Shown: positions 47,344 through 64,000 of the stretch, piece by piece
Layout of the letters: each line of letters starts with the position of its first letter
Position numbering within the stretch: position 1 is the first letter of the stretch
Origin: a bacterium
GTDB taxonomy: Bacteria > Patescibacteriota > Saccharimonadia > Saccharimonadales > SZUA-47
Direction of reading: 5' to 3'
Assembly: GCA_030427445.1 (NCBI GenBank)
Contig: JAUIBQ010000002.1
Span: 101 to 64,100, forward strand
DNA length: 64,000 nt
Program-made: the position numbers and the translations under genes
Notes under the pieces: model-generated
What the model was told of the DNA's origin: nothing
Seen by the model: the letters and a program-made list of their open reading frames with translations, nothing else
Database searches by the model: none

Positions 47344-47439
47344 TATTATTTTCTCCTTTTATTAGAAAATACCTACATTTTCATGTGTTTACGCACTTAA
47401 GTGTATCTGGTTTTATGAAAAAATTCTAGTGTTTTAGCT

Positions 47440-47886: not shown

Positions 47887-47904
47887 ACTAACCTTTCAAT
47901 TACT

Positions 47905-48312
47905 TTATGCAAAGAATCCGAGGACGAAGCGAACAATGAGCTGTGCAAGTGCGACGACGACGATTCCGATTGCTGCGTATATGATAGCATTCTTTGCTTG
48001 AGAAACCTTCTGTGAGTCTCCTTGAGAGGTGATGTAGCGTAAGCCTGCCAGCATAATCATCAATACTGCGATAATGCCAGCGACAAAAGAAAGTAGGTTT
48101 AGTGCTGATTCAAGTCCATTATCAATAGTTACGTCGTCTGTGTCATCGGTGCATGAAGCATTATTGTCGATAACTCCAAGTGATTCACATGCAGCATCTG
48201 AAGAGTTATTTTGAGCATGTACCAGTTGCGCCGGAAAGAAAAGACTGAATAAAAAGACACCTGTGATAAGAAGCTTGCTAACTGAAGTTAATTTTCTCGT
48301 CATATCGTACAT
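47905..48312 (-). CDS. T4SS pilin-like protein, paralog 3
   Basis: VAGIIAVLMIMLAGLRYITSQGDSQKVSQAKNAIIYAAIGIVVVALAQLIVRFVLG; Cys pair ACESLGVIDNNASC. Confidence 0.6.
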   Translation of the reverse strand: MYDMTRKLTSVSKLLITGVFLFSLFFPAQLVHAQNNSSDAACESLGVIDNNASCTDDTDDVTIDNGLESALNLLSFVAGIIAVLMIMLAGLRYITSQGDSQKVSQAKNAIIYAAIGIVVVALAQLIVRFVLGFFA

Positions 48313-48322
48313 TATAAAACCC

Positions 48323-48727
48323 TTAGTTTATTAGCTCTCCAATAACAACTGAGACGATGGCTTGAGCAAACAGGACAATCACGATACCTATTACAGCATA
48401 TATCATGAGGTTTCTTGCACTGTTAAACTTCTGTGGATCGCCGTCAGACGTCATCATCTGGACACCACCAACAATAATTATAATAACTGCAATAATACCT
48501 GCCACGATTGAGAGGATATTGAAAACACTTCTAAATAAACCGTCCTCACCACTAACGGGGTCTTCTGTGCTCTGTAAATCTTGGCATATCGGTGAACTAG
48601 ATGAGTCATTTCGACACACTTCGTTGATAGCATTACTTTGTGCACCGACCAAGGTAGGCGATAAAGAAATCAGGATAACGAATAGCAAAGCCAGAGTCGA
48701 TAGAGATGTTTTTATGCTCGTTATCAT
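48323..48727 (-). CDS. T4SS pilin-like protein, paralog 4 (more divergent)
   Basis: VAGIIAVIIIIVGGVQMMTSDGDPQKFNSARNLMIYAVIGIVIVLFAQAIV; Cys pair VCRNDSSSSPIC. Confidence 0.55.
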   Translation of the reverse strand: MITSIKTSLSTLALLFVILISLSPTLVGAQSNAINEVCRNDSSSSPICQDLQSTEDPVSGEDGLFRSVFNILSIVAGIIAVIIIIVGGVQMMTSDGDPQKFNSARNLMIYAVIGIVIVLFAQAIVSVVIGELIN

Positions 48728-49014
48728 AGTGCCCCCGCAACAAATCTTATAATTGAAGTTGCAAGTGCAGCAATGATAATTCCGACTATTGCGTATATGA
48801 TTGTATTTCTTGCATTTTTTGTTTTCTGTGGATCACCTTGTGAAGTTATGAAATTAATGCCAGCAACAATAATAACTACAGTCGCAACAGCAACCACCAA
48901 GATAAATACCCACCCCATTATGGTGTCTAAGCCTGCTTCCTGATTTTCATTTTTAGGCAAACCAGTAAGGTCGTCTGGGTTGATATTAATCTGAGAAAGC
49001 TTGTGAAAATACAT
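48724..49014 (-). CDS. T4SS pilin-like protein, paralog 5 (core only; lacks signal peptide and Cys-containing variable domain)
   Basis: VAVATVVIIVAGINFITSQGDPQKTKNARNTIIYAIVGIIIAALATSIIRFVAG; overlaps paralog 4 start by 4 nt. Confidence 0.5.
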   Translation of the reverse strand: MYFHKLSQININPDDLTGLPKNENQEAGLDTIMGWVFILVVAVATVVIIVAGINFITSQGDPQKTKNARNTIIYAIVGIIIAALATSIIRFVAGAL

Positions 49015-49015
49015 A

Positions 49016-49468
49016 TTACCCTCCCAGAGTCCTTCCTACATATGCAACAATTTGTGATGCAATAAGCACTATAGCGAAACCAATAGCAGCGTTTATAACT
49101 GTTTGGCGCGCTTTTGTAGCGTTGTCAGGATTGCCTTGAGATGTAATAAACTTAAACGAACCCCAGAAAATCATAACTAATGCTACGAATGTTGACGCCT
49201 TTAATAACCCTTCAAGGATGGTGATGCCTATCACTAAAGAAGTATTGACTTGCTCTTCTTCGTCGCCGTCACCTAAAGAAGGCTGACAATCCCCCTCTTC
49301 ACTTTCTGGTAAATAGTTATACCATGCAGGTATAGTGAGAAAGCTGTCTTGACACCTCACCGGTAGAGCATGGGCTTTCTGGGGAGCGGCATTGCTAGCG
49401 ATAGCCAATGCACTAAAAATAACTATCAAACTAACTGTCATCTTTAAAAATATAGTCTGCAGCTTCAT
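49016..49468 (-). CDS. T4SS pilin-like protein, paralog 6
   Basis: FVALVMIFWGSFKFITSQGNPDNATKARQTVINAAIGFAIVLIASQIV; Cys pair RCQD..DCQP. Start set to ATG 49468 (signal peptide MKLQTIFLKMTVSLIVIFSALAIASNA) because the longer ORF-track version overlaps paralog 7. Confidence 0.5.
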   Translation of the reverse strand: MKLQTIFLKMTVSLIVIFSALAIASNAAPQKAHALPVRCQDSFLTIPAWYNYLPESEEGDCQPSLGDGDEEEQVNTSLVIGITILEGLLKASTFVALVMIFWGSFKFITSQGNPDNATKARQTVINAAIGFAIVLIASQIVAYVGRTLGG

Positions 49469-49508
49469 TACAAATATCATATACCATTTATTAGCCAAAG
49501 ACCAAAGC

Positions 49509-50057
49509 CTAGAGCACTCCTCCTGGCACGAGGAAATTAAGTAAACCATACCCAAACACGAATAGTGCTAGTGCAACCAGAGCCCAAACGATACGTTTTT
49601 TAGCTGCAGCAACCGCCGCCGGATTATCGCGAGCCGACATATATTGATATCCAGCAAACATGACTGACGCGACTATCGCCATAATGGCTAAGGCAGACAA
49701 AAAGTTAATCGCAATTACTAGATAGTTAATGATCGTACAATTGTCTTTACTAAGAGCTACACCATTACCTGGCTCACAGTTATTTGGATCTGAGGCGTCA
49801 AAACCACTTACACCTTCTGTTTCGCTAACACACGCTCCATCTATAGAGCTAGTCCCGATTTGGCACTGACAATACTCTGCTGTAACTGCTCTTCCAGCAA
49901 CTACTTCTGTTTCTGTAGTCCATGTACCACCAGACGCTTTGCATGCTTCTTCATCAGCAGAGACTGTGGGTGGTGCTACAAAAAACAGAAAAACACCTGT
50001 TGCTAGAATCGCGACTATGAGTGAGTTGATTATATAAATTTTTATTTGATTAAGCAT
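49509..50057 (-). CDS. T4SS pilin-like protein, paralog 7 (largest, Cys-rich ectodomain; first gene of the pilin operon)
   Basis: FLSALAIMAIVASVMFAGYQYMSARDNPAAVAAAKKRIVWALVALALFVFGYGLLNF; seven Cys in ectodomain. Start set to ATG 50057 (RBS aaagg). Confidence 0.5.
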   Translation of the reverse strand: MLNQIKIYIINSLIVAILATGVFLFFVAPPTVSADEEACKASGGTWTTETEVVAGRAVTAEYCQCQIGTSSIDGACVSETEGVSGFDASDPNNCEPGNGVALSKDNCTIINYLVIAINFLSALAIMAIVASVMFAGYQYMSARDNPAAVAAAKKRIVWALVALALFVFGYGLLNFLVPGGVL

Positions 50058-50160
50058 TTTATTACCTTTATATTTTATAGTATACAAACATTTAATACTA
50101 TGTACAAAAATAGTATTTGTGTACATAGTACTTACGTTTTTAATATCAATGGTTTATTGG

Positions 50161-54449: not shown

Positions 54450-55607
54450 ATGGCCGTTTATAAAGTACCACAAGATGTCGAGGCAGAGGACAAGTTTTTA
54501 GGTCCTTTGACGTTCAAGCAGTTTCTCTTTTTCGGAGGAGTGTTAATCTTTGGATACATCACATTTCTTACAGCAACTAAGGTGGTGTTTCTTGCTCCGG
54601 TTTTCGCTATCCCTACGCTCGTTTTTGCCGTGCTTGCGACACCCTGGAGCAAAGACCAGCCGACGGAAGTGTTCTTAGGTGCTCGCTTCCGGTTTTTCTT
54701 CAAACCACGCAAGCGTATCTGGGACCAGACAGGCATCAAAGACTTAGTCAAAATCACCGTGCCAAAACGTGAAGCTCATGTGTATTCAGACGGCCTCTCA
54801 CAAGGTGAGGTGAGAAAACGCTTTGGTGCGTTAGCAACGATGGTAGACAGCCGTGGCTGGGCTGTAAAGAGCGTTCCGGGACTTTCACAAGTCAACGTAG
54901 CAGAGCAGAGTGACCGACTTGTCGAAGCTCCTCAGCAAGCTCCAAGTCAAAACGAAGCGATTTTAGCGCAGACTGAAGATGTGCTTGATGAAGACACCGG
55001 TGTCGTCGGAAAAAGTCTCGACAACATGATCGCTCAGTCAGAGCAAAAACATAAAAGTGAAACTCTGAAAATGATTCAACAAGCCCGTCAGGGTGGTGGG
55101 GGAGATACGAGTGCACCTAGCTTAAGCCCAGCACAAAAAAATAACACTGCCAAACCTAAAGCTGACCAGAACTCTCAAGATTTCTGGTTTATGCATCAGC
55201 AAAACGGCCAGGGTGGGCAAGCAGCCCCAGACCCTTCGCTCGCAACATTTAGCAACTCAACTGTTGTGTCTCCTGGAAGCACCACTCAACAAACCACAAC
55301 TCAGTCTGTTAAAGACGACCCCGTAGATGAGCAAGCAGTGTTGGATAAAATCCACGAAAAAGAGCGTAGAGACGCACTGCAGACACATTCACATCATGGC
55401 AAAGTAGTAAACCCGGACGGCACTGTACCTCAACAAAACGAAAGCCAAACAACAGAAGAAAAAAAGGATAAGCAAAACGTGACTACTCCTGTTAATCCTG
55501 ATATACTGAACCTAGCATCTAACAGAGATTTGAACGTTGCTACGATCCAGAGGCAAGCGAATAAAAAAGACGACGGCCAAGACGAAGTCGTGATTTCGCT
55601 TCACTAG
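54450..55607 (+). CDS. PrgI-family (VirB3-like) T4SS protein with long low-complexity C-terminal extension
   Basis: N-terminus MAVYKVPQDVEAEDKFLGPLTFKQFLFFGGVLIFGYITFL + second TM matches PrgI family hallmark (VP.D...EDK...G.LT..Q + 2 TM). Confidence 0.55.
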   Translation: MAVYKVPQDVEAEDKFLGPLTFKQFLFFGGVLIFGYITFLTATKVVFLAPVFAIPTLVFAVLATPWSKDQPTEVFLGARFRFFFKPRKRIWDQTGIKDLVKITVPKREAHVYSDGLSQGEVRKRFGALATMVDSRGWAVKSVPGLSQVNVAEQSDRLVEAPQQAPSQNEAILAQTEDVLDEDTGVVGKSLDNMIAQSEQKHKSETLKMIQQARQGGGGDTSAPSLSPAQKNNTAKPKADQNSQDFWFMHQQNGQGGQAAPDPSLATFSNSTVVSPGSTTQQTTTQSVKDDPVDEQAVLDKIHEKERRDALQTHSHHGKVVNPDGTVPQQNESQTTEEKKDKQNVTTPVNPDILNLASNRDLNVATIQRQANKKDDGQDEVVISLH

Positions 55608-55677: not shown

Positions 55678-56484
55678 ATGCAGCCGCAAAACCAATATCC
55701 TAATCAACCTGCTGGCATGCCTGGAAACCCAGGTCAGCCTGTTGCTCAGTCGCCAAAAACCAACCCAAATAGCACACAAAACACGTTGCAGATTGCAGAA
55801 ATCCGTGACGGAATCGTCATCATGAATGACGGTAGTTTCCGAGCTGTAGTCGCGTGTCAGAGCATCAACTTTGACCTCATGAGTCCTGAAGAGCGTGAGG
55901 CTGTTGAGTACAGTTATCAAGGATTTTTAAACTCGCTTTATTTTCCAGTACAAATATTTGTCAGAAGTCAGAAAGTAGATATCCGACCATACATTGAAAA
56001 GTTGGACAAAATCCGCTCAGAGCATGACAACATGCTTTTAGCACTTTTAATGGAGGACTACATTGGCTTTATGTCTTCACTCGCACAAGAAACAAACATT
56101 ATGGATAAAAAATTCTATGTTGTCATCCCGTATTTCAAGTCAGTAGACGGTCAACAGCTAGTAGAGCAGAGTAAGGGCTTTTTCCAGAGTTTTATGGGTA
56201 AAAAAGAGGAAAAGGTTGTGATCAACGAGCAAGACCTTGAAAAAGGTAAGGCAGAGCTTAGGAATCGCATCCAGGCAATTATGGCCGGACTCCAGCAATG
56301 TGGAGTGCAGTCCGTACCTCTTGATACACAAGAATTGATTGAACTTTACTACGATGCGTATAACCCAGATACTGCGACACGCCAGCAGATTACACGATTT
56401 GACGGCATGCTCAACACTGACGTCATCGAAAAAGGGCAGGGCGATGCAGCTCAACCGCAACTAGATAAGGAATTGGGTAGTTAG
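55678..56484 (+). CDS. VirB4/TrbE N-terminal domain-like protein (separate ORF) with Pro/Gln-rich leader
   Basis: IAEIRDGIVIMNDGSFRAVVACQSINFDLMSPEEREAVEYSYQGFLNSL resembles the start of CagE/TrbE/VirB4 N-domain; stop TAG 2 nt before GTG of the ATPase ORF. Confidence 0.45.
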   Translation: MQPQNQYPNQPAGMPGNPGQPVAQSPKTNPNSTQNTLQIAEIRDGIVIMNDGSFRAVVACQSINFDLMSPEEREAVEYSYQGFLNSLYFPVQIFVRSQKVDIRPYIEKLDKIRSEHDNMLLALLMEDYIGFMSSLAQETNIMDKKFYVVIPYFKSVDGQQLVEQSKGFFQSFMGKKEEKVVINEQDLEKGKAELRNRIQAIMAGLQQCGVQSVPLDTQELIELYYDAYNPDTATRQQITRFDGMLNTDVIEKGQGDAAQPQLDKELGS

Positions 56485-56486
56485 TC

Positions 56487-58403
56487 GTGGGATTATTCGG
56501 AGGAAAACCAAAACTCGATCCAGTTGCTCAAGCACAGCTTCAGCAAGCCCAGGAGCAAATGGAGGTACAGGCAGCATTTCAAAAAGGCGTGACTGCACTT
56601 CGGGACTTCATCGCACCGGCAAGCCTAGAGTTTGAAAGTTCGATGTTTAAGATCGGCACGCGGCTCGCGCGCACCTATTTCGTGTACGGCTACCCTCGGC
56701 AAATTTATACAGGCTGGCTTTCTAGTATGATCAATCTCGATGAGGTGATCGATATTTCAATGTTTATCTACCCGGTTGAGAGTCAAGCAGTTCTCGAAAA
56801 CCTCCGTAAAAAAGTCGGTCAGCTCGAAGCAGGTATCCAAATCGACGCTGAAAAAGGTCGCGTGCGTGACCCACAAAAGCAAGCAGCTATCCAAGATGCT
56901 GAAGAGTTACGAGACAAGCTCCAGGTGGGCGAAGAGCGGTTTTTCCGCTTTGGTCTGTATTTCACTGTATACGCAAACAGTCCTGAGGAGATGGAGTTCG
57001 TTACGCACAAGGTTGAGAGTATGCTCGGTCAACAGCTTGTGTACTCAAAACCTGCAAGCGCACAACAAGAACAAGGTCTAAACTCGACAATCCCACAATT
57101 CACCGACCAGCTACAAATCCGCCGTAACATGAACACAGGAGCTATCAGCACGAGCTTCCCATTCACGAGCTCTGATCTATCTCAAGAAAACGGCATTCTC
57201 TACGGTATCAACATGCACAACTCAGGCCTTGTGATCTTTGACCGTTTCAGCCTTGAGAACGGCAACTCTGTTGTCTTCGCGAAGTCAGGCGCTGGTAAAA
57301 GCTTTACCGTGAAGCTCGAAGCGCTTCGAAGCATGATGTTTGGCACTGAAGTGTTTATTATCGACCCAGAAAACGAATACCAGAGAATGGCGGAAGCTGT
57401 AGGCGGCGCGTATGTACGACTAAGCCTAAACTCCACAACACGAATCAATCCGTTTGACTTGCCGCAAGTCGTAGACGGGGAAGAGGCAGACAACGCGCTG
57501 CGAAGCAACCTCATCACCCTCCACGGACTTCTTCGTCTCATGATGGGTGGTGCACAAGCGCAAATGGCAGGCCAACAAGGCGCAATGATGGCGCCAGCAC
57601 TCAGTCCAGTCGAAGAATCAGATCTTGACCAAGCTCTCATCGAAACCTACGCAAAAGTCGGGATTACAAATGACCCATTAACTCATAAATCTCAGCCGCC
57701 AACTATCGCTGATCTCTACGATACACTCCTCCACATGGGAGGCACCGGACCGCAGCTAGCGCAACGACTGCGAAAGTACACCACAGGTACATTTGCCGGT
57801 ATCTTTTCACAGCAAAGCAACGTAAATATCAACAACCCGTTGGTGGTATTTAATATTCGTGACCTTGAGGATGAGCTTCGACCAGTCGCAATGTACATTG
57901 TCCTAAACTACATCTGGAACAAAACAAAATCTGACCAAAAGAAACGTTTGCTTGTTGTTGATGAAGCGTGGCAACTAATGAAATACGAAGATTCGGCAAA
58001 CTTTATGTTCTCTCTTGCGAAGCGTGCTCGTAAATACAACCTTGGCATCACAACCATTACGCAAGACGTCGAAGACTTTATGGGCTCTCGTATGGGGCGT
58101 GCTATCGTCGCCAACTCTAGCATGCAGCTTCTACTAAAGCAGTCGGCATCGGCGGTTGATGTACTTAGTGACGTCTTTAAGCTGACGAGTGAGGAGAAGA
58201 AGCGTCTTAGTCAGTTCCCAGTGGGTCAAGGCCTGTTCTTTGCTGGTCAAAACCATGTGCACATCCAAATAGTTCCTAGCCAGACAGAGGCTTCTCTTAT
58301 CACGACCAATCCAGAACAGGTGAAGCAGCTCGAGCAGCAGCAACAAAATCAGCAAGTCGACCTTAATCAAACAGGATATAATGATACTGTGAATCTACGA
58401 TAG
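56487..58403 (+). CDS. virB4: VirB4/TrbE/PrgJ-family T4SS ATPase (C-terminal part)
   Basis: Walker A VFAKSGAGKSFTVK, Walker B RLLVVDEAWQLM, motif ITQDVEDF; GTG start. Confidence 0.8.
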   Translation: MGLFGGKPKLDPVAQAQLQQAQEQMEVQAAFQKGVTALRDFIAPASLEFESSMFKIGTRLARTYFVYGYPRQIYTGWLSSMINLDEVIDISMFIYPVESQAVLENLRKKVGQLEAGIQIDAEKGRVRDPQKQAAIQDAEELRDKLQVGEERFFRFGLYFTVYANSPEEMEFVTHKVESMLGQQLVYSKPASAQQEQGLNSTIPQFTDQLQIRRNMNTGAISTSFPFTSSDLSQENGILYGINMHNSGLVIFDRFSLENGNSVVFAKSGAGKSFTVKLEALRSMMFGTEVFIIDPENEYQRMAEAVGGAYVRLSLNSTTRINPFDLPQVVDGEEADNALRSNLITLHGLLRLMMGGAQAQMAGQQGAMMAPALSPVEESDLDQALIETYAKVGITNDPLTHKSQPPTIADLYDTLLHMGGTGPQLAQRLRKYTTGTFAGIFSQQSNVNINNPLVVFNIRDLEDELRPVAMYIVLNYIWNKTKSDQKKRLLVVDEAWQLMKYEDSANFMFSLAKRARKYNLGITTITQDVEDFMGSRMGRAIVANSSMQLLLKQSASAVDVLSDVFKLTSEEKKRLSQFPVGQGLFFAGQNHVHIQIVPSQTEASLITTNPEQVKQLEQQQQNQQVDLNQTGYNDTVNLR

Positions 58404-58430: not shown

Positions 58431-61400
58431 ATGTATCCAGGACCAGGTTCAGTTATAACACCAGGAGGGTCTAGTACAGGTCCTGATAATGACCCGAGAA
58501 ATCCAGTCGCTAAACCTTGGAGTGATGAAGAAATCGCTAAAGGCGTTCAACAACTAGAAGATCATGCAAATGATCCAAAAAACGCTACTAAAAATTCCCA
58601 GTCTGCGGCTAAGGGTGAATCAAACACCTCTCCGCATAAGGGGAATGAAAGTTCAGCTCTTGATGAAGAAAAAGGTAAGTTTAGGACTTCTTTAAGCGAC
58701 AAGCTTCGTCAGGATAATTCTTTAGTTGGCCTCGCAAAGCGACACAGAGCACGACTTGCTTTGGCCAGTGCAACTTTTGGAGTTGCTGGACTAATGGTTG
58801 GTGGTTTTATTGCTGCTCCAAGTTTTATACTGTCTCACATAAGCACCCTTATTACTGACAAGACAAGCGAGCTTCAAGTTAATAGTCAAGCAAAGTATCG
58901 CCGTTCGAAATTCGCTAGTTTCACTGACAGATTTACAATAGACGGCAGAAGATCTGGTGCGCTCATTGCAGAAATGAAGAAATTCGGCTATAAGATCGAC
59001 GTTAAAAATGGTACATTCCAAGCACCAGGTGGCTCATCAAAACCACTAGCGGAAGCTGGCGAAGAATTCTCAGAATTTATGGACCAACGCTACAAAATTT
59101 TTGGTGTACCGACACGTTCGCAGACATGGAAAACAAAACGTACTGATGCGCTTTTTAATAGGCATAATGTCGTGCGGTCATCTTCCGTGACATCTAAACC
59201 AGGCGATCTAGAAGACCCAGAGATACAGATGAACAAAACTCAGAATAATTCAATTAATGAGGGTAGCGAGATTGATACAAGCATAGATGAGTCTCCGGCA
59301 AAGAGAGATACTGACTCCGGGAATGAAAATATAGATAGCGATAATGAGAGCTATAATCAAGCTAATGATGAAGCGGCTGAAGCATTGGTACCAGAGGATA
59401 ATGTGTTTAGGCAAGCTGCTGATGATCTTGCCGATGGAGTAAGTATTAATGAACTTGGCGGGGTTGGACCTATCGGTGATGAGCTTGATCTTGGCTATGG
59501 CCCAAATCTCGTAAAAGCAGAGGTGAGAAGGAGTCTTCTTAGTCCCGGTGGGGCAGCTGCCGGAGCTGTTACCATTGCTAAGTCTGCACTTTTACCTGCA
59601 GATATAGCCGACAAAGCATGTACCGCAAATTCACGTCTCGATATGGCGGTAAAAGTGGCGAGAGCTGCTACAAGCGTCAAAATGATGCGCGCAGCTTTGG
59701 TGTTTGTAAGTGCAGATGATGGACAAAGAAGACAGGAAGCATCATTTGATTTAATGATGCAGATAGTTAAGCGAGTGATGTTGAGTGATAAAGCTATGGG
59801 AAATTTTGCTAATTCGGCAGGCTTTCAGTTTGCAAGTAATGGCTCTTTTAGTAGGTCAGCGCTGGAGAATCAGCCTTCTAAATTTAATACTTCTGGAAAG
59901 CTTTCTGCATTTTGGGGTGCCGTACGTAGTGCGACCGGAAAGATACCAGGATGTAGCGTATTGGGAAATACGGCATTTCAAATAGGTCTTGGGATTGGTG
60001 CGGTAGCATTGTCGATAGCGGTTCCAGGATCTGGCGCCGCTGCAGGCACAGGGGTTAAAACAGCACTACAAACTGCTGTACAGGGATTTTTTACAAAAAA
60101 AGCTCTGACTGGTATACTTGCGGGGCTGATAATTGATTACAGTTTTGAAGAAATACTGAACTTAACTACGTTATATGTGCAGAAACAACTCACTATGGCA
60201 ATCACAGGACAAGAGACTGGGGGCATGTATTCGAGTCTTTTATTCTCAGGAGCGGGAGTTCTTACTAAACAGAGATTCTTAAATGCTGGACAGGTACCCG
60301 CGACAGCCACACAATACGCACAAGCACGAGACATATTCCTAGCTGAGAAACGTGAAGAATCTAAAAATAAATCACTTGCTCAAAGATTATTTGATTTCTC
60401 TGATTATGACTCTCTCGCATACCAAACCACAGCCACACTTGCTTTGAATAGCGGCACACCTTCTGCTGCGATATCAAATTTCGGCACCAGTGTAGCGAGC
60501 CTGCCTTCATTAATGACAAATACCGTTACATCACTAACAACCGGCCGCGCATATGCTCAAGATTCTGATGAGCAATTAGCGTTCGACACAATTAGCATAA
60601 ACGGCACAGAATACGCGACAGATCCATCGGGTAATCTTCTCACGATCATGCGTGACGATATAAGCAGTATAGATGTTGATGAGAACCTTCAAGAATTAGA
60701 AGACGAAGGACATATAAGCAGTGAAGCTACAGGCTACGAACCAAAAAGTAGCGAGTTTACTACTTTTATGGAGTTATGTATAGACTCTGTCGATCAAATA
60801 AGCGCCATGGAAGAGGGAGAAGATTGTGCTGGCACAAAAACATTAACTAAGAAATTCTATGCGCATCTAGCATATTTAGACTCGATTGACTTCATAGATA
60901 GCTCACTGTTCTCGAACGAAATCAGTAGCTATGGCAGTGGCAGTAGTACACAACCAACTAACGCACCGAATGCATACTCAGTATCTGCGATTGAACCGGC
61001 GGAGGGATTGATACAAGGCACAAGTATCGAAGCACAGGACACAAGCAATATGGAATGCCCTATAAGTGACACCGTGCAAGACTTAGGCATAGAAACTGAG
61101 GCCTATGTAAAAGGAGTGAGGTACAGTGTTAGACTGTGCGCAGTACATGGTATTCGCATAAATGTCCTTATTGCTAAACAACTTGATGACATGTTAAATG
61201 AAATGGCTGACGAAGGCTATACCGTACGTGGAAGCGGTGGCTTTAGGGATCACGCAAGCCAAGTAGCAGGGTATGCTGGTGGCGCAGGGGCAGGGACGTT
61301 TGCAAAACCAGGATATTCAAATCACCAATTCGGACTGGCTATCGACTTCAGTTGTCAAGGACAAGGACAAAGTTACACAGCTGGTACGGGTAGATATCGA

Positions 61401-61568
61401 GATAGCTTCTTGCAAAACCTTAGTCAGTACCCTTGCCTGGAGTGGTTATCCAGAAATTCACCTCGCTATGGACTTCTTAACTCGTGTGTAGCCCAGGGGT
61501 CTCAAGGTGAAATTAGAGCAACTTCGGGTGGCTGTGAATGGTGGCATTTTTCACCTGATGGGAAATAA
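58431..61568 (+). CDS. Large T4SS-associated membrane protein with C-terminal peptidase M15 (VanY/D-Ala-D-Ala carboxypeptidase-like) cell-wall hydrolase domain
   Basis: C-terminus SNHQFGLAIDF (SxHxxGxAxD) and CEWWHF (ExxH) zinc-peptidase motifs; TM segments at ~110 aa and ~520-560 aa. Confidence 0.6.
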   Translation: MYPGPGSVITPGGSSTGPDNDPRNPVAKPWSDEEIAKGVQQLEDHANDPKNATKNSQSAAKGESNTSPHKGNESSALDEEKGKFRTSLSDKLRQDNSLVGLAKRHRARLALASATFGVAGLMVGGFIAAPSFILSHISTLITDKTSELQVNSQAKYRRSKFASFTDRFTIDGRRSGALIAEMKKFGYKIDVKNGTFQAPGGSSKPLAEAGEEFSEFMDQRYKIFGVPTRSQTWKTKRTDALFNRHNVVRSSSVTSKPGDLEDPEIQMNKTQNNSINEGSEIDTSIDESPAKRDTDSGNENIDSDNESYNQANDEAAEALVPEDNVFRQAADDLADGVSINELGGVGPIGDELDLGYGPNLVKAEVRRSLLSPGGAAAGAVTIAKSALLPADIADKACTANSRLDMAVKVARAATSVKMMRAALVFVSADDGQRRQEASFDLMMQIVKRVMLSDKAMGNFANSAGFQFASNGSFSRSALENQPSKFNTSGKLSAFWGAVRSATGKIPGCSVLGNTAFQIGLGIGAVALSIAVPGSGAAAGTGVKTALQTAVQGFFTKKALTGILAGLIIDYSFEEILNLTTLYVQKQLTMAITGQETGGMYSSLLFSGAGVLTKQRFLNAGQVPATATQYAQARDIFLAEKREESKNKSLAQRLFDFSDYDSLAYQTTATLALNSGTPSAAISNFGTSVASLPSLMTNTVTSLTTGRAYAQDSDEQLAFDTISINGTEYATDPSGNLLTIMRDDISSIDVDENLQELEDEGHISSEATGYEPKSSEFTTFMELCIDSVDQISAMEEGEDCAGTKTLTKKFYAHLAYLDSIDFIDSSLFSNEISSYGSGSSTQPTNAPNAYSVSAIEPAEGLIQGTSIEAQDTSNMECPISDTVQDLGIETEAYVKGVRYSVRLCAVHGIRINVLIAKQLDDMLNEMADEGYTVRGSGGFRDHASQVAGYAGGAGAGTFAKPGYSNHQFGLAIDFSCQGQGQSYTAGTGRYRDSFLQNLSQYPCLEWLSRNSPRYGLLNSCVAQGSQGEIRATSGGCEWWHFSPDGK

Positions 61569-61576
61569 AGAACTTT

Positions 61577-63109
61577 ATGACTAAAAAATCATTCCTACTC
61601 ACCTCGATTACGGCAATCATCATGACATTAACTGCGATACTTTTACAGTTTTCCATTGTGACTGCACAAGAAGAGGAGGAATGCACTGAGGCACAATTAC
61701 GAGCACAGGGAGTTATTGTGGTTTCTTGCAACCCTTTACCGGCAGAGAACTGCACAACTGTGGGTACTGTAAGCAGCAGAAACCCAGCCACTTCTGAGTA
61801 TTTATCTATTACTTATCCTGAAGCACTTGATAGCATCCCTGATTTGGCACAAAAAATTGATACTTTCATAGCTAGTAAGAATTCAACAACCCCATGGAAT
61901 GGACTAGGTTCCTTTATCATAGAAGAAAGTAAAAAGTACGACGTCAACCCTGTTTTTATAGTTGCCACGGGCAGGTCTGAAACTGGCTTCAGAGGGTCGA
62001 GTTCAAGCAGGTACAACTATTTTGGTATTAAAAACTCCAGCTCTACATATCGTCAATTCACAAGTGCAGAGGAAGGAATTGCATACTTTATTTCTACCAT
62101 ACCGGAATATTTAAGCGGAGAGAGATCAGGAGGAAGGTATCAAGGTATAAATACGGTATATGAGTACTCCTCAATACATCAAACTGGTAGCGTTGTTTAC
62201 CCAGGAGAGCCATTCGATCCTAACGATATCGATGAAAAGAAGGGGAACACTCAAGACTTATGGGACCCTGCAATGGCCGTGTATGTGAGCTGGGACGAAA
62301 ACGCTAACAACAGGCCTGAAGTAAACCCAAAATACAAAGGTAACGTATATAACCCGCTCAATTATTACAAACTAAATATTGAGACTTTTAATGGCATCCT
62401 TGGTTTAAACTTGCCTGATACACCTGGTGGAGTCACGGCTCAGTGTGGGTCTTTGACTGCTGGTGCATCTGGCTGGGACCTGCCAGGAGAAGGAGCGAAT
62501 CCTATGGTTTACTACTCCCAGAGAAGGTCTGGAGATGATACTGCTTTAAGTGCTGACGCATTACGTGAGGTTATTGGTAGGTCCTTTAATTATCCCTCGG
62601 GATATTTCGGCAACGACAATTATGGTCCAGGACCGATAGCGCATTGCGGATGCGGTCCGACATCGTGGGCAATGATTGTCAGTACGCTTACTGGTGAAGT
62701 TACGACACCTACCGAAGTAGCTGAATGGGCGAACGAGAATGGTTGGCAATCTGACGGTGATCCTTGCGGTGGATCTAATTGGTGGTGGAACTCCCAAGAA
62801 TCTTCCGAAGCGAAATGGAAAGTATCAGCAACCCCTATAACCATCTCGGATGCACCCGATGCATTACGCTCGGGCTCTTTAATACTGGTTTCTGCAGGAT
62901 CAGGACCATTCACAAGCGGAGGGCATCTTTTAGTGATGAGAGCTGTGACAGATGATGGGAAATTCTTATTTGCAGACCCTAATGACTATAGAGATACTAG
63001 ACAGGCAGCATTCAATGTGTTTAACGGCGAAAGTAAGAGTCGCACACCACTAAGTGAAGAGCAGTTTATAGGCAGTATAAAAGGGCTATGGGAGGTTAAG
63101 CCATTATGA
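61577..63109 (+). CDS. Secreted cell-wall hydrolase: glucosaminidase (FlgJ/Mannosyl-glycoprotein endo-beta-N-acetylglucosaminidase-like) + C39-like/CHAP-like cysteine peptidase domain
   Basis: Signal peptide; ATGRSETGFRGSSSSRYNYFGIK (glucosaminidase motif); CGPTSWAMIV ... GGHLLVMRAV (Cys/His peptidase_C39_2-like). Confidence 0.55.
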   Translation: MTKKSFLLTSITAIIMTLTAILLQFSIVTAQEEEECTEAQLRAQGVIVVSCNPLPAENCTTVGTVSSRNPATSEYLSITYPEALDSIPDLAQKIDTFIASKNSTTPWNGLGSFIIEESKKYDVNPVFIVATGRSETGFRGSSSSRYNYFGIKNSSSTYRQFTSAEEGIAYFISTIPEYLSGERSGGRYQGINTVYEYSSIHQTGSVVYPGEPFDPNDIDEKKGNTQDLWDPAMAVYVSWDENANNRPEVNPKYKGNVYNPLNYYKLNIETFNGILGLNLPDTPGGVTAQCGSLTAGASGWDLPGEGANPMVYYSQRRSGDDTALSADALREVIGRSFNYPSGYFGNDNYGPGPIAHCGCGPTSWAMIVSTLTGEVTTPTEVAEWANENGWQSDGDPCGGSNWWWNSQESSEAKWKVSATPITISDAPDALRSGSLILVSAGSGPFTSGGHLLVMRAVTDDGKFLFADPNDYRDTRQAAFNVFNGESKSRTPLSEEQFIGSIKGLWEVKPL

Positions 63110-63813
63110 TGAACAGCAATAAGGCCAAGCTAATAGTTGCGGCCCTACTTTTTATTGGTGCAGTTGTTCTTTTTATACTTAGTTTTGTGAGCAACCCTGC
63201 AAACGATACAGCTGAAGAGCCAATCTTCGCAGACACTCCAGCACTGTTTAGTGGCGAGTATTCAGAATTACTAAATAGCCTTCCTACTGCGTCATTTGAA
63301 TTACTTAGAGAGGATGTAAAGTATCTTGGCGTAGAATCGTTTGATGAGTATAGAAAACTTGAGGAAGAAGTTATATTCTTCGTTAACGGAGAATCAATAA
63401 GCACTCAAAATGACACCATGTCGTTTAGCGGATACTTTGAGATTAATGAAGAAGAACCTGTACAAACAACAGTGGAGATTTTATCAAACAACCGTATTAA
63501 CGTCGTCTTCAATCAGCAGCTTATTGAGCTAGACCCAAACCAACTTCCATCAAACTCTCCAAGAAATAACTTTATATCTACATTACCAGAGCAAAGACCA
63601 GGCTATGACATAGAATACGATATTGATGCAGATAGCTTCATAGTTAGGCTGTATGAGTTGGATGCGCAAGAGGCCGCAGTGGATTATATATCAGCTAAAA
63701 TAGAAGACCCGAATTATTCAGAGAAAATTGAAATAATACCTCTTGGGTCAACGAATTTTGAGCGGTTTGAGAGTATTTATCCTACTAATGGCGCTGAGGT
63801 AGTAGGGCCTTAA
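63106..63813 (+). CDS. Hypothetical membrane-anchored protein (possible VirB8/PrgL-like periplasmic component), last gene of T4SS operon
   Basis: N-terminal TM LIVAALLFIGAVVLFILSF; 4-nt overlap with upstream gene. Confidence 0.35.
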   Translation: MMNSNKAKLIVAALLFIGAVVLFILSFVSNPANDTAEEPIFADTPALFSGEYSELLNSLPTASFELLREDVKYLGVESFDEYRKLEEEVIFFVNGESISTQNDTMSFSGYFEINEEEPVQTTVEILSNNRINVVFNQQLIELDPNQLPSNSPRNNFISTLPEQRPGYDIEYDIDADSFIVRLYELDAQEAAVDYISAKIEDPNYSEKIEIIPLGSTNFERFESIYPTNGAEVVGP

Positions 63814-64000
63814 AGTGGGATGATGTTGTGGTCGCTGAAATGTTCGACGACGACGTCTGCGTCGGTGCTTGTGACGAACGTTTGCGTGTCTGTAAGCGCG
63901 TTAGCGAGTGATTTCCGACGTGAACCATCCAACTCCCCAAACACGTCGTCTAAAAGCAATATGGGCTGCTTGTCGTACCGCTCCCGTACGACATCAAGCT
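63810..64000 (-). CDS. recF: DNA replication and repair protein RecF, C-terminal end (partial, continues past window)
   Basis: Minus-strand translation ...ILLLDDVFGELDGSRRKSLANALTDTQTFVTSTDADVV..IIPL* matches RecF C-terminal signature (LLLDDV.sELD). Confidence 0.7.
   Translation of the reverse strand, partial: LDVVRERYDKQPILLLDDVFGELDGSRRKSLANALTDTQTFVTSTDADVVVEHFSDHNIIPL

What the first reader, a model, noticed from the sequence alone, without database searches (positions are those of the whole stretch)
58431..63109. Two dedicated peptidoglycan hydrolases within the T4SS operon (M15 peptidase fused to a 1045-aa membrane protein; glucosaminidase + C39-like peptidase)
T4SS of monoderm bacteria need a cell-wall hydrolase (PrgK/TcpG/CwlT analogs). 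Here two distinct enzymes are encoded back-to-back. One is anchored on a large multi-TM protein with SNHQFGLAIDF/EWWH zinc-peptidase motifs. The other is signal-peptide secreted and combines an N-acetylglucosaminidase motif (RYNYFGIK) with a Cys/His papain-like domain (CGPTSWAMIV...GGHLLVMR). For an epibiont such enzymes could act on its own wall or on the wall of the host bacterium.
Basis: partly seen in the sequence, partly recalled or inferred. Interest (0 to 1): 0.6.

Follow-up and report, generated by a model that had tools for sequence, protein, structure and literature searches.

The report
Cell-wall hydrolase pair in Saccharibacteria T4SS operon
Two neighbouring genes at the end of a chromosomal type IV secretion operon of a Saccharibacteria-like epibiont do encode predicted cell-wall-cutting enzymes, but the same gene pair is already known, and known to be essential, in a cultivated relative, so this is a new example of a known arrangement.

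Summary
Both ORFs exist exactly as described, and all the quoted motifs are present. Profile searches pass Pfam's curated cut-offs. The 1045-aa protein A carries VanY/M15. The 510-aa protein B carries GH73 glucosaminidase plus Peptidase_C39_2. Predicted folds match LdcB/VanY, LytB/AtlE and papain-like proteases. Catalytic residues are conserved.

The pair sits after a split VirB4 in a chromosomal operon that runs into recF. This layout is the same in eight Saccharibacteria loci and in Southlakia epibionticum ML1. There the counterparts SEML1_0007 and SEML1_0006 are Tn-seq essential, and they have already been noted as "peptidase and lysozyme homologues downstream of virB4".

Two corrections:
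- Protein A has one robust TM helix, so it is not a multi-TM protein.
- Its conserved part is an ~830-aa scaffold with no recognisable relative, not the peptidase.

New here:
- The C-terminal enzyme on that scaffold swaps repeatedly between M15, M14 and M23, and can be absent.
- B's relatives swap their glycan-cutting module but keep an invariant Gln/Cys/His/Asp domain.
- Clostridial conjugative loci carry lysozyme/glucosaminidase plus C39_2 proteins next to VirB4, so B looks inherited as a VirB1-type hydrolase.

Whether the enzymes act on the epibiont's own wall or on the host's wall is unresolved.

The parts
58431..61568 (+). Protein A, 1045 aa: membrane-anchored T4SS-locus scaffold protein with a C-terminal M15B (VanY/LdcB-like) zinc peptidase module
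   Evidence: ORF; Pfam VanY 38.5 bits; family of ~60 cluster representatives that align over the scaffold; counterpart of SEML1_0007 by position, size and domain placement
58431..58754 (+). A aa 1-108: predicted cytoplasmic, mostly disordered N-terminal tail with one short helix (aa 32-46). A GVQQLEDHANDPKN motif is shared only with the closer relatives.
   Evidence: Net charge +4 just before the TM helix; low pLDDT except aa 31-50; the motif is only clade-specific
58755..58832 (+). A aa 109-134: the single robust transmembrane helix (N-in/C-out inferred)
   Evidence: Hydropathy 1.9; present at the same alignment position in 47 of 49 relatives
58833..60926 (+). A aa 135-832: conserved, mostly helical extracytoplasmic scaffold with invariant C397, C508, C783 and C799. 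It includes a Gly/Ala-rich, marginally hydrophobic segment at aa ~511-569 that is modelled with low confidence.
   Evidence: Alignment A1; AlphaFold model pLDDT >90 over much of the region; no PDB match by fold or by profile; no Pfam family
60927..61058 (+). A aa 833-876: low-complexity Ser/Thr/Gly/Pro linker. This is the junction at which the C-terminal module changes between relatives.
   Evidence: pLDDT <50 for aa 833-864; relatives stop aligning at aa ~830-850
61059..61568 (+). A aa 877-1045: M15B/LAS zinc peptidase module. R939, S963-x-H965-x2-G-x-A-x-D972 and E1036-x2-H1039 are present.
   Evidence: Pfam VanY aa 910-1040; Foldseek LdcB 4mph 8.5e-4, VanY, VanXY, DacB, Ply500, all at probability 1.0; profile vs PDB LdcB 1e-8; motif residues conserved in 23-25 of 25 M15-bearing relatives
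61577..63109 (+). Protein B, 510 aa: exported two-domain hydrolase (GH73 glucosaminidase plus C39_2-like papain-fold cysteine peptidase)
   Evidence: ORF; Pfam; 22 relatives; counterpart of SEML1_0006
61577..61669 (+). B aa 1-31: Sec-type signal peptide (KK, long hydrophobic core, ...IVTAQ). It is followed by a small Cys-containing segment (C36, C51, C59).
   Evidence: Hydropathy 2.15; the same '...(G/A/H)AQ' ending is seen in four of the neighbouring pilin precursors. Cleavage is inferred, not tested.
61787..62176 (+). B aa 71-200: GH73-like N-acetylglucosaminidase domain with the predicted catalytic Glu135 (GRSETGF) and the NYFGIK motif
   Evidence: Pfam Glucosaminidase aa 114-191; Foldseek LytB 7pj4 9e-3, AtlE 4pia, Auto 3fi7, Ecd09610 8yxk; Glu present in 16 of the 19 relatives that have a residue in this column
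62450..63109 (+). B aa 292-510: C39_2-like papain-fold domain with invariant Gln315, Cys359, His450 and Asp467. It has an ~16-aa insertion (aa ~324-339) that the relatives lack.
   Evidence: Pfam Peptidase_C39_2 aa 356-469; invariant columns; Foldseek papain-like toxin 9l5u 3e-3, CdiA-CT 8ssm, PCAT1 C39 7n87
63106..63813 (+). Protein C, 235 aa: N-terminally anchored protein of unknown function, translationally coupled to B (ATGA overlap) and conserved at this position in all related loci
   Evidence: ORF and TM helix; no Pfam or NCBIfam hit; 23-33% identity to the same-position gene in seven loci
56487..58403 (+). VirB4 ATPase, P-loop part (638 aa)
   Evidence: NCBIfam conju_CD1110 375 bits; Pfam P-loop_TraG
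55678..56484 (+). VirB4 N-terminal (TraC-like) domain encoded as a separate 268-aa ORF
   Evidence: NCBIfam matches to the N-terminal part of VirB4 models; the same split occurs in L001, L002, L012 and L014 and in SEML1_0009/0008
54450..55607 (+). PrgI (VirB3-like) protein with a long low-complexity tail
   Evidence: Pfam PrgI 47.3 bits
50879..54412 (+). 1177-aa polytopic protein, VirB6/TrbL-like by position and by homology to TrbL_3-annotated proteins
   Evidence: 5-6 hydrophobic helices at aa 500-720; 50% identity to the L001 gene that carries PF19590 TrbL_3; no direct Pfam hit in this copy
46915..50126 (-). Divergently transcribed array of six VirB2-like T4SS pilin genes
   Evidence: Pfam T4SS_pilin PF18895 in all six
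63807..64000 (-). 3' end of recF, convergent with the operon. This places the operon next to the recF-dnaN-dnaA origin region. The 63807 boundary is approximate.
   Evidence: tblastn with the L001 RecF: 60% identity over 62 aa, E 3e-24; same neighbourhood in L001, L002, L012, L013 and L014

Best explanation
These are the two cell-wall-remodelling genes of the chromosomal, origin-proximal type IV secretion/pilus operon that is conserved in Saccharibacteria. Protein B is exported through Sec. It acts as the VirB1-type hydrolase of the machine: a GH73 domain cuts glycan strands and a papain-fold Cys/His domain cuts or binds stem peptides. This is the same division of labour as in CwlT, TraG(pIP501) and PrgK of monoderm conjugation systems, from which it was probably inherited. 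Protein A is a Saccharibacteria-type T4SS-locus protein not detected in five clostridial T4SS loci. It is held in the membrane by one N-terminal helix and projects an ~700-residue helical ectodomain. It presents an exchangeable peptidoglycan peptidase (here M15B, VanY/LdcB-like) on a flexible linker at the site where the channel and pilus must pass the epibiont's own wall. Shown here: domain identities, catalytic-residue conservation, operon position and synteny. Shown elsewhere: essentiality of the counterpart genes in S. epibionticum. Inferred: export and topology, enzymatic activity, action on the cell's own wall, and physical association with the T4SS.
For: Domains pass Pfam cut-offs and are supported by predicted folds and by a profile search against PDB (LdcB/VanY 1e-8). 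Catalytic sets are conserved: H965/D972/H1039 with E1036 in A; E135 and invariant Q315/C359/H450/D467 in B. Genes are packed tightly after VirB4. The order VirB6-like, PrgI, split VirB4, A, B, C, recF recurs in L001, L002, L012 and L014, and in part in L004-L006 and L013. A is anchored by a universally conserved TM helix with positive charge on its N-terminal side, which fits action in cis. Clostridial T4SS loci encode Lysozyme_like+C39_2 (L009) and Glucosaminidase+C39_2 (L007, 35% identity to B, E 2e-21) next to VirB4-like ATPases. B's architecture therefore pre-dates the epibiotic lifestyle. In S. epibionticum ML1 the counterparts SEML1_0007 (DD-peptidase fold, aa 951-1105) and SEML1_0006 (two lysozyme-like domains plus a cysteine proteinase) are classed as essential, like the rest of the T4SS (PMC10633639). 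PMC12102498 proposes that they replace VirB1.
Against: No activity data exist for any member. In PrgK the LytM and CHAP domains are catalytically silent regulators (PMC11323569), so domain presence does not prove catalysis. The closest solved relatives of A's module are carboxypeptidases (LdcB, VanY), which trim stem peptides and do not open cross-links. The repeated swapping of A's module among M15, M14 and M23 between close relatives is not obviously needed for a housekeeping role on one's own wall. Nor is the fast divergence of A (42% identity) and C (33%) compared with VirB4 (88%). The marginally hydrophobic segment at aa 515-536 leaves the topology of the C-terminal half formally open. 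Association of A or B with the T4SS rests on gene position only.
Confidence: 0.55

Rival explanations
1. Host-directed wall breaching. A and/or B act on the peptidoglycan of the actinobacterial host at the attachment site. They open it so that the T4SS pilus or channel can reach the host membrane, or they release muropeptides and amino acids as nutrients. The exchangeable enzyme cassettes would then track the peptidoglycan chemotype of the host and help set host range.
For: Module types are interleaved on the scaffold tree. The query (M15) is sister to P0028 (M14); P0026 (M15) groups with P0029 and P0031 (M14); P0035 (M15) groups with P0043 (M23). Pfam confirms each of these individually. B's relatives likewise exchange GH73 for SGNH esterase plus phage-tail lysozyme. 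A and C are the fastest-evolving proteins of the operon. B's Cys domain resembles papain-like interbacterial toxins (9l5u, CdiA-CT 8ssm) and is followed by a translationally coupled, membrane-anchored small protein, a layout reminiscent of effector/immunity pairs. The T4SS is essential for epibiotic growth and lacks a relaxase and a coupling protein (PMC10633639).
Against: A is membrane-anchored in the producer, and its linker plus module would have to span the producer's own wall and the gap to the host. B carries a Sec signal peptide rather than a T4SS signal. B's architecture also occurs next to VirB4 in free-living Clostridia, where it serves conjugation. Some relatives have no enzyme module on the scaffold at all (L006, 872 aa). 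No host or chemotype data were available to test the predicted correlation.
Confidence: 0.28
2. Mainly structural or regulatory. The scaffold of A is the functional part, as a channel, stalk or pilus-base component that replaces the missing VirB8/VirB10-type subunits. The M15 module, and possibly B's Cys domain, bind peptidoglycan or regulate the glycosidase without cutting, as the LytM and CHAP domains of PrgK do.
For: The scaffold is conserved in every locus examined, while the enzyme module varies or is absent. No VirB8 homologue was found in S. epibionticum (PMC12102498). PrgK provides a precedent (PMC11323569).
Against: The metal ligands and catalytic Glu of the M15 module, and the Gln/Cys/His/Asp set of B, are strictly conserved. 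That is unlike the degenerate LytM domain of PrgK. The replacement modules (M14, M23) also score as intact families at about 50 bits.
Confidence: 0.12
3. B's C39-like domain is a processing protease for the six VirB2-like pilins or another exported protein, in the way C39 peptidases remove leader peptides. On this reading it is not a peptidoglycan peptidase.
For: Pfam places the domain in Peptidase_C39_2, and it resembles the PCAT1 and ComA leader peptidases. Six pilin precursors are encoded next to the operon.
Against: Four of the six pilin precursors end their leaders in ordinary signal-peptidase-type '...AQ' motifs, the other two end '...AL'/'...SA', and none has a double-glycine leader. 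The same domain is fused to lysozyme or glucosaminidase domains in clostridial T4SS loci examined here, where no pilin genes were looked for. Fusion to glycan hydrolases points to a wall substrate.
Confidence: 0.05

Closest known systems
SEML1_0007 and SEML1_0006 of the essential T4SS cluster of Candidatus Southlakia epibionticum ML1 (Wang et al. 2023, PMC10633639)
   Same: The gene order is the same: VirB6-like, PrgI, split VirB4, ~1100-aa protein with a C-terminal DD-peptidase fold, lysozyme-like plus cysteine-proteinase protein, small exported protein(s), recF-dnaN-dnaA. Sizes and domain positions are similar. A pilin array is present.
   Different: SEML1_0006 (643 aa) carries an extra phage-tail-lysozyme domain that protein B lacks. 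S. epibionticum has two small genes before recF, where this window has one. The sequences themselves could not be aligned here, so orthology rests on synteny, size and domain layout.
CwlT (ICEBs1), TraG (pIP501), PrgK (pCF10) and TcpG (pCW3): VirB1-type hydrolases of monoderm conjugative T4SS
   Same: They are encoded inside the T4SS operon, are exported or membrane-anchored, and combine a glycan-strand hydrolase with a Cys/His peptidase-fold domain. They are thought to open the wall locally for the channel (PMC12102498; PMC11323569).
   Different: Those proteins use SLT/lysozyme-type and CHAP or NlpC/P60 domains. B uses GH73 and C39_2, with CHAP scoring only 17.9 bits against a cut-off of 26. 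None of them is accompanied by a second, ~1000-aa scaffold-borne peptidase like A.
Lysozyme_like/Glucosaminidase + Peptidase_C39_2 proteins next to VirB4-like ATPases in Clostridia (L007, L009)
   Same: The domain order is the same and the C39_2 domains are homologous (35% identity, E 2e-21). They lie in the same neighbourhood as a VirB4-like ATPase.
   Different: The clostridial proteins are longer (578-970 aa) with other N-terminal regions. In L009 the locus also encodes a thioester-domain adhesin. The scaffold HMM of A finds nothing in these loci.
LdcB/DacB LD-carboxypeptidases, VanY DD-carboxypeptidases and Ply500-type L-Ala-D-Glu endolysins (MEROPS M15B, LAS fold)
   Same: The fold, the zinc ligands H-x6-D...H and the ExxH catalytic motif are shared.
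   Different: Those are small, stand-alone or phage enzymes. Here the domain is the C-terminal cassette of a 1045-aa anchored protein. Bond specificity (carboxypeptidase or endopeptidase) cannot be assigned from sequence.
X-Tfe peptidoglycan-hydrolase effectors of bacteria-killing Xanthomonadales T4SS
   Same: Peptidoglycan hydrolases are genetically linked to a T4SS used against another bacterium. A small envelope-located protein is encoded next to the enzyme. This comparison is from my own knowledge plus PMC6536674, which was listed but not read.
   Different: X-Tfes are recognised by VirD4 through a C-terminal XVIPCD domain and are injected. Here no coupling protein was seen, B has a Sec signal peptide, and A is membrane-anchored.

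Membership tests
Peptidase M15B / VanY-LdcB (LAS zinc peptidases), protein A C-terminus | Match to the family profile above the curated threshold | tested here: met
   Pfam VanY PF02557 38.5 bits against a cut-off of 25, aa 910-1040. NCBIfam subfamily models (vanY_BG, LdcB, vanXY) score far below their cut-offs, so no subfamily can be assigned.
Peptidase M15B / VanY-LdcB (LAS zinc peptidases), protein A C-terminus | Zinc ligands His-x6-Asp ... His and the catalytic Glu of the ExxH motif | tested here: met
   H965, D972, E1036 and H1039 are present. S/H/G/A/D are conserved in 25 of 25 M15-bearing relatives and the last His in 23 of 25. An E.WH motif was found in 23 of those 25.
Peptidase M15B / VanY-LdcB (LAS zinc peptidases), protein A C-terminus | LAS fold | tested here: met
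   Foldseek on the AlphaFold model: LdcB 4mph 8.5e-4, VanY 5hnm, VanXYc 4oak, DacB 4nt9, Ply500 2vo9, all at probability 1.0. TM scores are only ~0.45-0.55 relative to the target.
Peptidase M15B / VanY-LdcB (LAS zinc peptidases), protein A C-terminus | Hydrolysis of a defined stem-peptide bond | not testable with these tools
   This needs muropeptide analysis.
GH73 N-acetylglucosaminidase, protein B N-terminal domain | Match to the family profile above the curated threshold | tested here: met
   Pfam Glucosaminidase 32.9 bits against a cut-off of 30.2. The margin is small and only profile positions 4-88 of 123 are aligned.
GH73 N-acetylglucosaminidase, protein B N-terminal domain | Catalytic general-acid Glu in the conserved helix | tested here: met
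   E135 lies in GRSETGF. Glu occupies that column in 16 of the 19 relatives that have a residue there.
GH73 N-acetylglucosaminidase, protein B N-terminal domain | Lysozyme-like GH73 fold | tested here: inconclusive
   Foldseek hits to LytB 7pj4 (9e-3), AtlE 4pia (1.6e-2), Ecd09610 8yxk and Auto 3fi7 have probability 0.77-1.0 but weak E-values and cover 90-150 columns. Residues 203-236 of the model have low confidence.
Peptidase_C39_2 / papain-fold cysteine peptidase, protein B C-terminal domain | Match to the family profile above the curated threshold | tested here: met
   PF13529 42.1 bits against a cut-off of 24. CHAP is below its cut-off at 17.9 against 26.
Peptidase_C39_2 / papain-fold cysteine peptidase, protein B C-terminal domain | Gln (oxyanion), Cys, His and Asp/Asn catalytic residues in papain order | tested here: met
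   Q315, C359, H450 and D467 are invariant in 23 of 23 sequences.
Peptidase_C39_2 / papain-fold cysteine peptidase, protein B C-terminal domain | Substrate: leader peptide or peptidoglycan stem peptide | not testable with these tools
   Only context speaks to this. The domain is fused to glycan hydrolases here and in Clostridia.
VirB1-type cell-wall hydrolase of monoderm T4SS (PrgK/TraG/CwlT/TcpG) | Encoded within the T4SS operon close to virB4 | tested here: met
   A starts 27 nt after VirB4 and B starts 8 nt after A. The arrangement is conserved in related loci.
VirB1-type cell-wall hydrolase of monoderm T4SS (PrgK/TraG/CwlT/TcpG) | Homology to the SLT/lysozyme and CHAP or NlpC/P60 domains of the named proteins | tested here: not met
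   B has GH73 and C39_2 instead, and CHAP is below its cut-off. PMC12102498 reports that VirB1 profiles mostly do not associate with virB4 in Patescibacteria. B therefore works like a VirB1-type hydrolase but is not a sequence-level member of those families.
VirB1-type cell-wall hydrolase of monoderm T4SS (PrgK/TraG/CwlT/TcpG) | Required for T4SS function | not tested
   Evidence is by proxy only. SEML1_0006 and SEML1_0007 are classed as essential in Tn-seq of S. epibionticum.
Saccharibacteria essential chromosomal T4SS cluster (S. epibionticum SEML1_0006-0019 type) | Gene content and order, including a VirB2-like pilin array and a split VirB4 | tested here: met
   Six pilins, a VirB6-like protein, PrgI, a split VirB4, then A, B and C. 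This matches the supplementary tables (Tn-seq and structure-based annotation) of PMC10633639.
Saccharibacteria essential chromosomal T4SS cluster (S. epibionticum SEML1_0006-0019 type) | Chromosomal location next to recF-dnaN-dnaA | tested here: met
   A RecF C-terminus is encoded at 63813-63998(-). Related loci continue into dnaN and dnaA. The rest of the window is housekeeping.
Saccharibacteria essential chromosomal T4SS cluster (S. epibionticum SEML1_0006-0019 type) | No relaxase or coupling protein | tested here: inconclusive
   None was found among the large ORFs scanned. Not every ORF of the window was scanned, and the rest of the genome is unseen.
T4SS-injected antibacterial effectors (X-Tfe type) | VirD4-dependent C-terminal secretion signal and a cognate immunity protein | tested here: not met
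   No VirD4 was seen. B has an N-terminal Sec signal and A has a TM anchor. The downstream protein C is of unknown function.

The most novel reading that the evidence does not exclude
The ~830-residue scaffold of protein A may be a T4SS subunit specific to the Saccharibacteria-type system that presents interchangeable wall-degrading cassettes (M15, M14, M23, SGNH, CHAP/NlpC-like) towards the HOST cell wall. B's exchangeable glycan modules would do the same. Cassette type would then be matched to the host's peptidoglycan chemotype and act as a host-range determinant. The Gly/Ala-rich hydrophobic segment (aa ~511-569) might insert into the host membrane in the manner of a translocator. One relative gave a Pfam SseC hit at 4e-5, which I did not follow up.
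Probability: 0.2. Interest if true: 0.7.

Novelty: new member of a known kind. Interest (0 to 1): 0.35.

Why it matters
The T4SS of Saccharibacteria is the first T4SS shown to be essential for the bacterium that carries it, and its function is described as completely unknown (PMC11665869, PMC12857230). The two hydrolase genes are among its least understood parts. This window adds one more example and does not change the picture.

The comparative results could still guide experiments:
- The conserved element is a large orphan scaffold.
- Its enzyme cassette is repeatedly exchanged among three metallopeptidase families, or lost.
- The second enzyme is inherited from monoderm conjugation systems.

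Together these separate a likely ancestral 'open my own wall' enzyme (B) from a lineage-specific, fast-evolving component (A) that may face the host. If cassette type follows host wall chemistry, it would be a readable genomic predictor of host range for uncultivated epibionts.

Tried and rejected
- **Word-indexed homologue searches for protein A** returned almost nothing, apparently because low-complexity words swamped the 8000-candidate limit. The second attempt, with the alignment, used the last search for no gain. The exhaustive HMMER search was needed to find the family.
- **The look-up of encoding contigs** with the window's own protein A found nothing. **The listing of cluster members** gave no names or accessions. 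The organism is therefore inferred only from relatives: 'Candidatus Saccharibacteria bacterium' for P0020 and L006, and a soil 'PAT3' bin for P0015.
- **The search for related loci with alignment A1** failed for lack of a conserved 7-10-column stretch. With A3 it found only three patescibacterial and five clostridial loci.
- **hhalign** of A1 against the 907-aa clostridial protein downstream of VirB4 failed internally. A local hmmsearch with the scaffold HMM found nothing in the clostridial loci.
- **The promoter/terminator scan** gave fewer sites than shuffled controls and says nothing about operon limits.
- **The N-terminal motif** GVQQLEDHANDPKN looked like a possible docking signal but is conserved in only about a quarter of the family. 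I dropped it as a general feature.
- **The multi-TM reading of A** was rejected.
- **Pilin processing by the C39-like domain** was considered and judged unlikely.
- **phmmer of B against PDB** gave only spurious rusticyanin hits.

Full report
**Observation.** Every quoted motif is present.

- In A: SNHQFGLAIDF at aa 963-973 and EWWH at aa 1036-1039.
- In B: RYNYFGIK at aa 145-152, CGCGPTSW at aa 357-364 and GGHLLVMR at aa 448-455.

Profile searches support the assignments above Pfam's curated cut-offs:

| Protein | Pfam family | Bits | Cut-off | Residues |
|---|---|---|---|---|
| A | VanY PF02557 | 38.5 | 25 | 910-1040 |
| B | Peptidase_C39_2 PF13529 | 42.1 | 24 | 356-469 |
| B | Glucosaminidase PF01832 | 32.9 | 30.2 | 114-191 |

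The glucosaminidase margin is narrow, and only the first two-thirds of that profile align. Peptidase_M15_4 and CHAP score below their cut-offs. NCBIfam gives only sub-threshold VanY/LdcB/VanXY hits for A and nothing for B.

**Context.** The surrounding genes form a monoderm-type T4SS operon on the + strand:

- a 210-aa anchored protein
- a 1177-aa polytopic protein
- PrgI (VirB3-like)
- VirB4, split into a 268-aa TraC-like N-terminal ORF and a 638-aa P-loop ORF (375 bits to NCBIfam conju_CD1110)
- A, then B, then a 235-aa anchored protein C

The 1177-aa protein is 50% identical to a protein annotated as TrbL_3. Gaps are 2 nt inside the split VirB4, 27 nt before A and 8 nt before B. B and C overlap by ATGA. 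Six VirB2-like pilin genes lie divergently at 46915-50126(-).

The last 190 bases of the window encode the C-terminus of RecF on the opposite strand (60% identity, E 3e-24). The other large ORFs of the window that were scanned are housekeeping genes: ValRS, primase, ArgRS, GroEL, a Mur ligase, ArgG/ArgH and TsaD, plus a sortase. The system is therefore chromosomal and lies next to the replication-origin gene block.

**Relatives and synteny.** B has 22 relatives in the large protein collection. The named ones come from Saccharibacteria or a soil 'PAT3' bin. The contigs that encode them show the same order each time: TrbL_3, PrgI, TraC-like, VirB4, an 886-1102-aa protein, the B relative and a 220-245-aa protein. 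They then run into recF, dnaN and dnaA (L001, L002, L012, L013, L014).

An HMM of A's scaffold finds the gene in that position in all eight Saccharibacteria-type loci and in none of five clostridial loci. Identity to the L001 counterparts falls along the operon:

| Protein | Identity to L001 counterpart |
|---|---|
| VirB4 P-loop part | 88% |
| VirB4 N-terminal part | 76% |
| B | 56% |
| PrgI | 51% |
| VirB6-like core | 50% |
| A | 42% |
| C | 33% |

**What is already known.** In Candidatus Southlakia epibionticum ML1 the T4SS cluster SEML1_0006-0019 is essential for epibiotic growth (PMC10633639). The paper's supplementary tables list these genes:

- SEML1_0008/0009: a split VirB4
- SEML1_0007: 1113 aa, with a Hedgehog/DD-peptidase fold at aa 951-1105
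- SEML1_0006: 643 aa, with two lysozyme-like domains and a cysteine proteinase domain
- small exported proteins, followed by recF-dnaN-dnaA

All of these are classed as essential. Quinonero-Coronel et al. write that canonical VirB1 profiles rarely associate with virB4 in Patescibacteria. [quoted passage not shown] The finding is therefore a further instance of a described arrangement. I could not align the ML1 proteins directly, so orthology rests on synteny, size and domain layout.

**Protein A in detail.** Only one hydrophobic helix is robust, at aa 109-134. It is preceded by KRHRAR, and it occurs at the same alignment position in 47 of 49 relatives.

The Gly/Ala-rich segment at aa ~515-536 reaches only ~1.7 on the Kyte-Doolittle scale. 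It falls below threshold in about half the family. Invariant cysteines lie on both sides of it: C397 and C508, then C783 and C799. The simplest reading is a bitopic protein, N-in and C-out, with the whole of aa 135-1045 outside the membrane. 'Multi-TM' is not supported.

The AlphaFold model has mean pLDDT 71, pTM 0.62 and 289 residues above pLDDT 90. It shows a mainly helical ectodomain, a disordered linker (aa 833-864) and a compact C-terminal alpha/beta domain.

Foldseek against PDB matches only that last domain. The hits are LdcB 4mph, VanY 5hnm, VanXYc, DacB and the endolysins Ply500 and LysB4. A profile of the family against PDB sequences gives LdcB/VanY at about 1e-8 and nothing for the scaffold. 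The metal ligands and the catalytic Glu are present and conserved. Whether the module is a carboxypeptidase or an endopeptidase cannot be decided from sequence.

**Exchangeable cassette on a conserved scaffold.** The exhaustive search found 279 relatives at E <= 1e-3. About 60 cluster representatives align over aa ~60-840, and many of them stop aligning there.

A Pfam scan of 47 family members gives VanY in 21, Peptidase_M14 in 10, Peptidase_M23 in 8, GDSL/SGNH in 2 and NlpC/P60 in 1. Individual scans confirm M14 at ~54 bits, M23 at ~50 bits and one SGNH+M23 combination. Several members give only weak CHAP or NlpC/P60 signals.

On a neighbour-joining tree built from the scaffold alone, the module types are interleaved:

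- The query (M15) is sister to P0028 (M14).
- P0026 (M15) groups with P0029 and P0031 (both M14).
- P0035 (M15) groups with P0043 (M23).

The tree is crude, but the sister-pair pattern requires repeated exchanges. In L006 the scaffold protein ends 20 residues after the scaffold, with no enzyme module at all. Conversely, the same M15 module (CEWWH.SPTGG) sits on much more divergent N-terminal regions in P0080 and P0081. I found no statement of this pattern in the papers I read.

**Protein B in detail.** The N-terminus (KK, a 23-residue hydrophobic core, then IVTAQ) resembles the leaders of four of the neighbouring pilin precursors, which end in VAQ, GAQ or HAQ. Sec export with cleavage is likely but untested.

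The model (mean pLDDT 74.8) has two confident domains. Foldseek matches the first to GH73 enzymes: LytB, AtlE, Auto and a C. difficile endolysin. It matches the second to papain-fold proteins: the toxin of 9l5u, a CdiA-CT, the PCAT1 and ComA C39 domains, and a phytochelatin-synthase-like protein. All these matches have weak E-values, and probability ranges from 0.72 to 1.0.

The predicted GH73 catalytic Glu (E135) is conserved. Gln315, Cys359, His450 and Asp467 are invariant in all 23 sequences.

B's relatives keep this C-terminal domain at ~45-60% identity but change the front end. Some carry GH73. Others carry an SGNH esterase plus a phage-tail lysozyme (PF18013), and one has GH73 plus SGNH. 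This copy has a private ~16-residue insertion just before the catalytic Cys.

**Origin of B.** Five clostridial loci were picked up through the CGCGPTS motif.

- In Merdimonas faecis (L009) a 578-aa Lysozyme_like+C39_2 protein sits two genes upstream of a 1061-aa VirB4-like ATPase and a thioester-domain adhesin.
- In an uncultured Clostridium (L007) a VirB4-like ATPase is followed by a 907-aa protein of unknown function. Further on comes a 970-aa protein with glucosaminidase (27.5 bits, below the 30.2 cut-off)+C39_2, whose Cys domain is 35% identical to B's (E 2e-21).
- L010 has a stand-alone C39_2 protein downstream of a VirB4-like ATPase.

The 'glycan hydrolase plus C39_2' protein is therefore a component of monoderm conjugative T4SS loci. 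This fits the proposed MPF-FATA ancestry of the patescibacterial system (PMC12102498). It argues that B is the functional VirB1 of this machine.

**Mechanism and its rivals.** The best-supported model (confidence about 0.55) is local remodelling of the epibiont's own wall so that the channel and the VirB2-like pilus can be assembled. B would be the inherited bifunctional hydrolase. A would be a lineage-specific anchored subunit that brings a stem-peptide peptidase to the site.

The main rival (about 0.28) is action on the host wall. Four observations favour it:

- the cassette exchange
- the fast evolution of A and C
- the toxin-like fold of B's Cys domain
- the coupled downstream gene C

Four observations weaken it:

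- A's membrane anchor
- B's Sec signal
- the clostridial precedent
- scaffold-only relatives

A structural/regulatory role without catalysis (about 0.12) has a precedent in PrgK. Its LytM and CHAP domains are inactive and down-regulate the muramidase (PMC11323569). Here, however, the catalytic residues are strictly kept. Pilin processing by the C39-like domain (about 0.05) is unlikely, because the pilin leaders lack a double-glycine motif and most look like ordinary signal peptides. The domain is also fused to glycan hydrolases in the clostridial T4SS loci.

**Verdict.** The arrangement is already described, so novelty is 'new member of a known kind'. Interest is moderate to low (0.35). The enzymes are uncharacterised parts of an essential machine whose function is an open question. 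The cassette-swapping pattern gives a testable handle on whether they face the cell's own wall or the host's. The window itself adds no new kind of system.

Noticed in passing
window 55678-56484 and 56487-58403 (+): VirB4 is encoded as two ORFs, a 268-aa TraC-like N-terminal domain and a 638-aa P-loop part, separated by TAG plus 2 nt. The same split is present in L001, L002, L012 and L014 and in S. epibionticum (SEML1_0009/0008). It is a conserved feature and not a sequencing error or pseudogene.
   Followed up: partly
window 46915-50126 (-): There is an array of six sequence-divergent VirB2-like T4SS pilin genes transcribed away from the T4SS operon. Four have leaders ending in ...AQ followed by a Cys pair. 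The ORFs at 49016-49555 and 49509-50126 overlap as listed, so the real start of the former is probably further downstream.
   Followed up: partly
window 63106-63813 (+): Protein C (235 aa, one N-terminal TM helix, no family hit) overlaps B's stop codon by ATGA. It is conserved at this position in seven related loci at only 23-33% identity. It could be a structural subunit or an inhibitor/immunity partner of B's Cys domain.
   Followed up: partly
window 63807-64000 (-): The window ends inside recF, convergent with the T4SS operon and apparently overlapping protein C's 3' end by a few bases. Related contigs continue into dnaN and dnaA, so the operon sits beside the replication origin.
   Followed up: yes
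relatives of protein A (P0026-P0090; L006:1981-4599): The C-terminal enzyme on the conserved scaffold is exchanged among VanY/M15 (21 of 47), M14 (10), M23 (8), SGNH (2) and NlpC/P60- or CHAP-like modules. It is absent in the 872-aa L006 copy. Module type is interleaved on the scaffold tree.
   Followed up: yes
relatives of protein A (alignment A2, member not identified): One family member gave a Pfam SseC (type III secretion translocator) hit at E 4.2e-5. It presumably falls over the Gly/Ala-rich hydrophobic segment that corresponds to aa ~511-569 of A. Which member and which region were not determined, and compositional bias is not excluded.
   Followed up: no
P0002 (Logan contig of 4.4 kb): This 1111-aa protein shares A's first ~55 residues at high identity (53% over the first ~106 residues and 42% over aa 1-178, including the TM helix). 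It then diverges completely and ends in an M14 domain. It is possibly a paralogue or a recombinant in a close relative.
   Followed up: partly
relatives of protein B (P0009-P0025): The invariant C39_2-like domain is combined with different front ends: GH73 alone, SGNH esterase plus phage-tail lysozyme PF18013, or GH73 plus SGNH. P0024 has a dockerin domain and may be clostridial.
   Followed up: partly
window 62546-62593 (B aa ~324-339): B carries an ~16-residue insertion (LSADALREVIGRSFNY) just upstream of the catalytic Cys that none of the 22 relatives has. It is modelled as a short helix.
   Followed up: no
L007:91-8492, L009:6711-12187, L010:543-8495: Clostridial T4SS loci encode Lysozyme_like or Glucosaminidase plus Peptidase_C39_2 proteins (also matching Peptidase_C70/AvrRpt2) near VirB4-like ATPases. 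In L007 an uncharacterised 907-aa protein follows VirB4, as A does here, but the scaffold HMM does not detect it.
   Followed up: partly
window 50879-54412 (+) and 54450-55607 (+): The VirB6-like protein has a ~480-aa N-terminal extracytoplasmic region and a ~450-aa C-terminal tail around its TM core. It gets no direct Pfam hit in this copy. PrgI carries a ~290-aa low-complexity Gln/Thr/Pro-rich tail.
   Followed up: no
window 41745-42338 (-) and 33954-35249 (+): A sortase and a Mur ligase are encoded nearby. This organism therefore builds its own peptidoglycan and anchors surface proteins to it, which matters for the question of whether the hydrolases act on its own wall or the host's.
   Followed up: no
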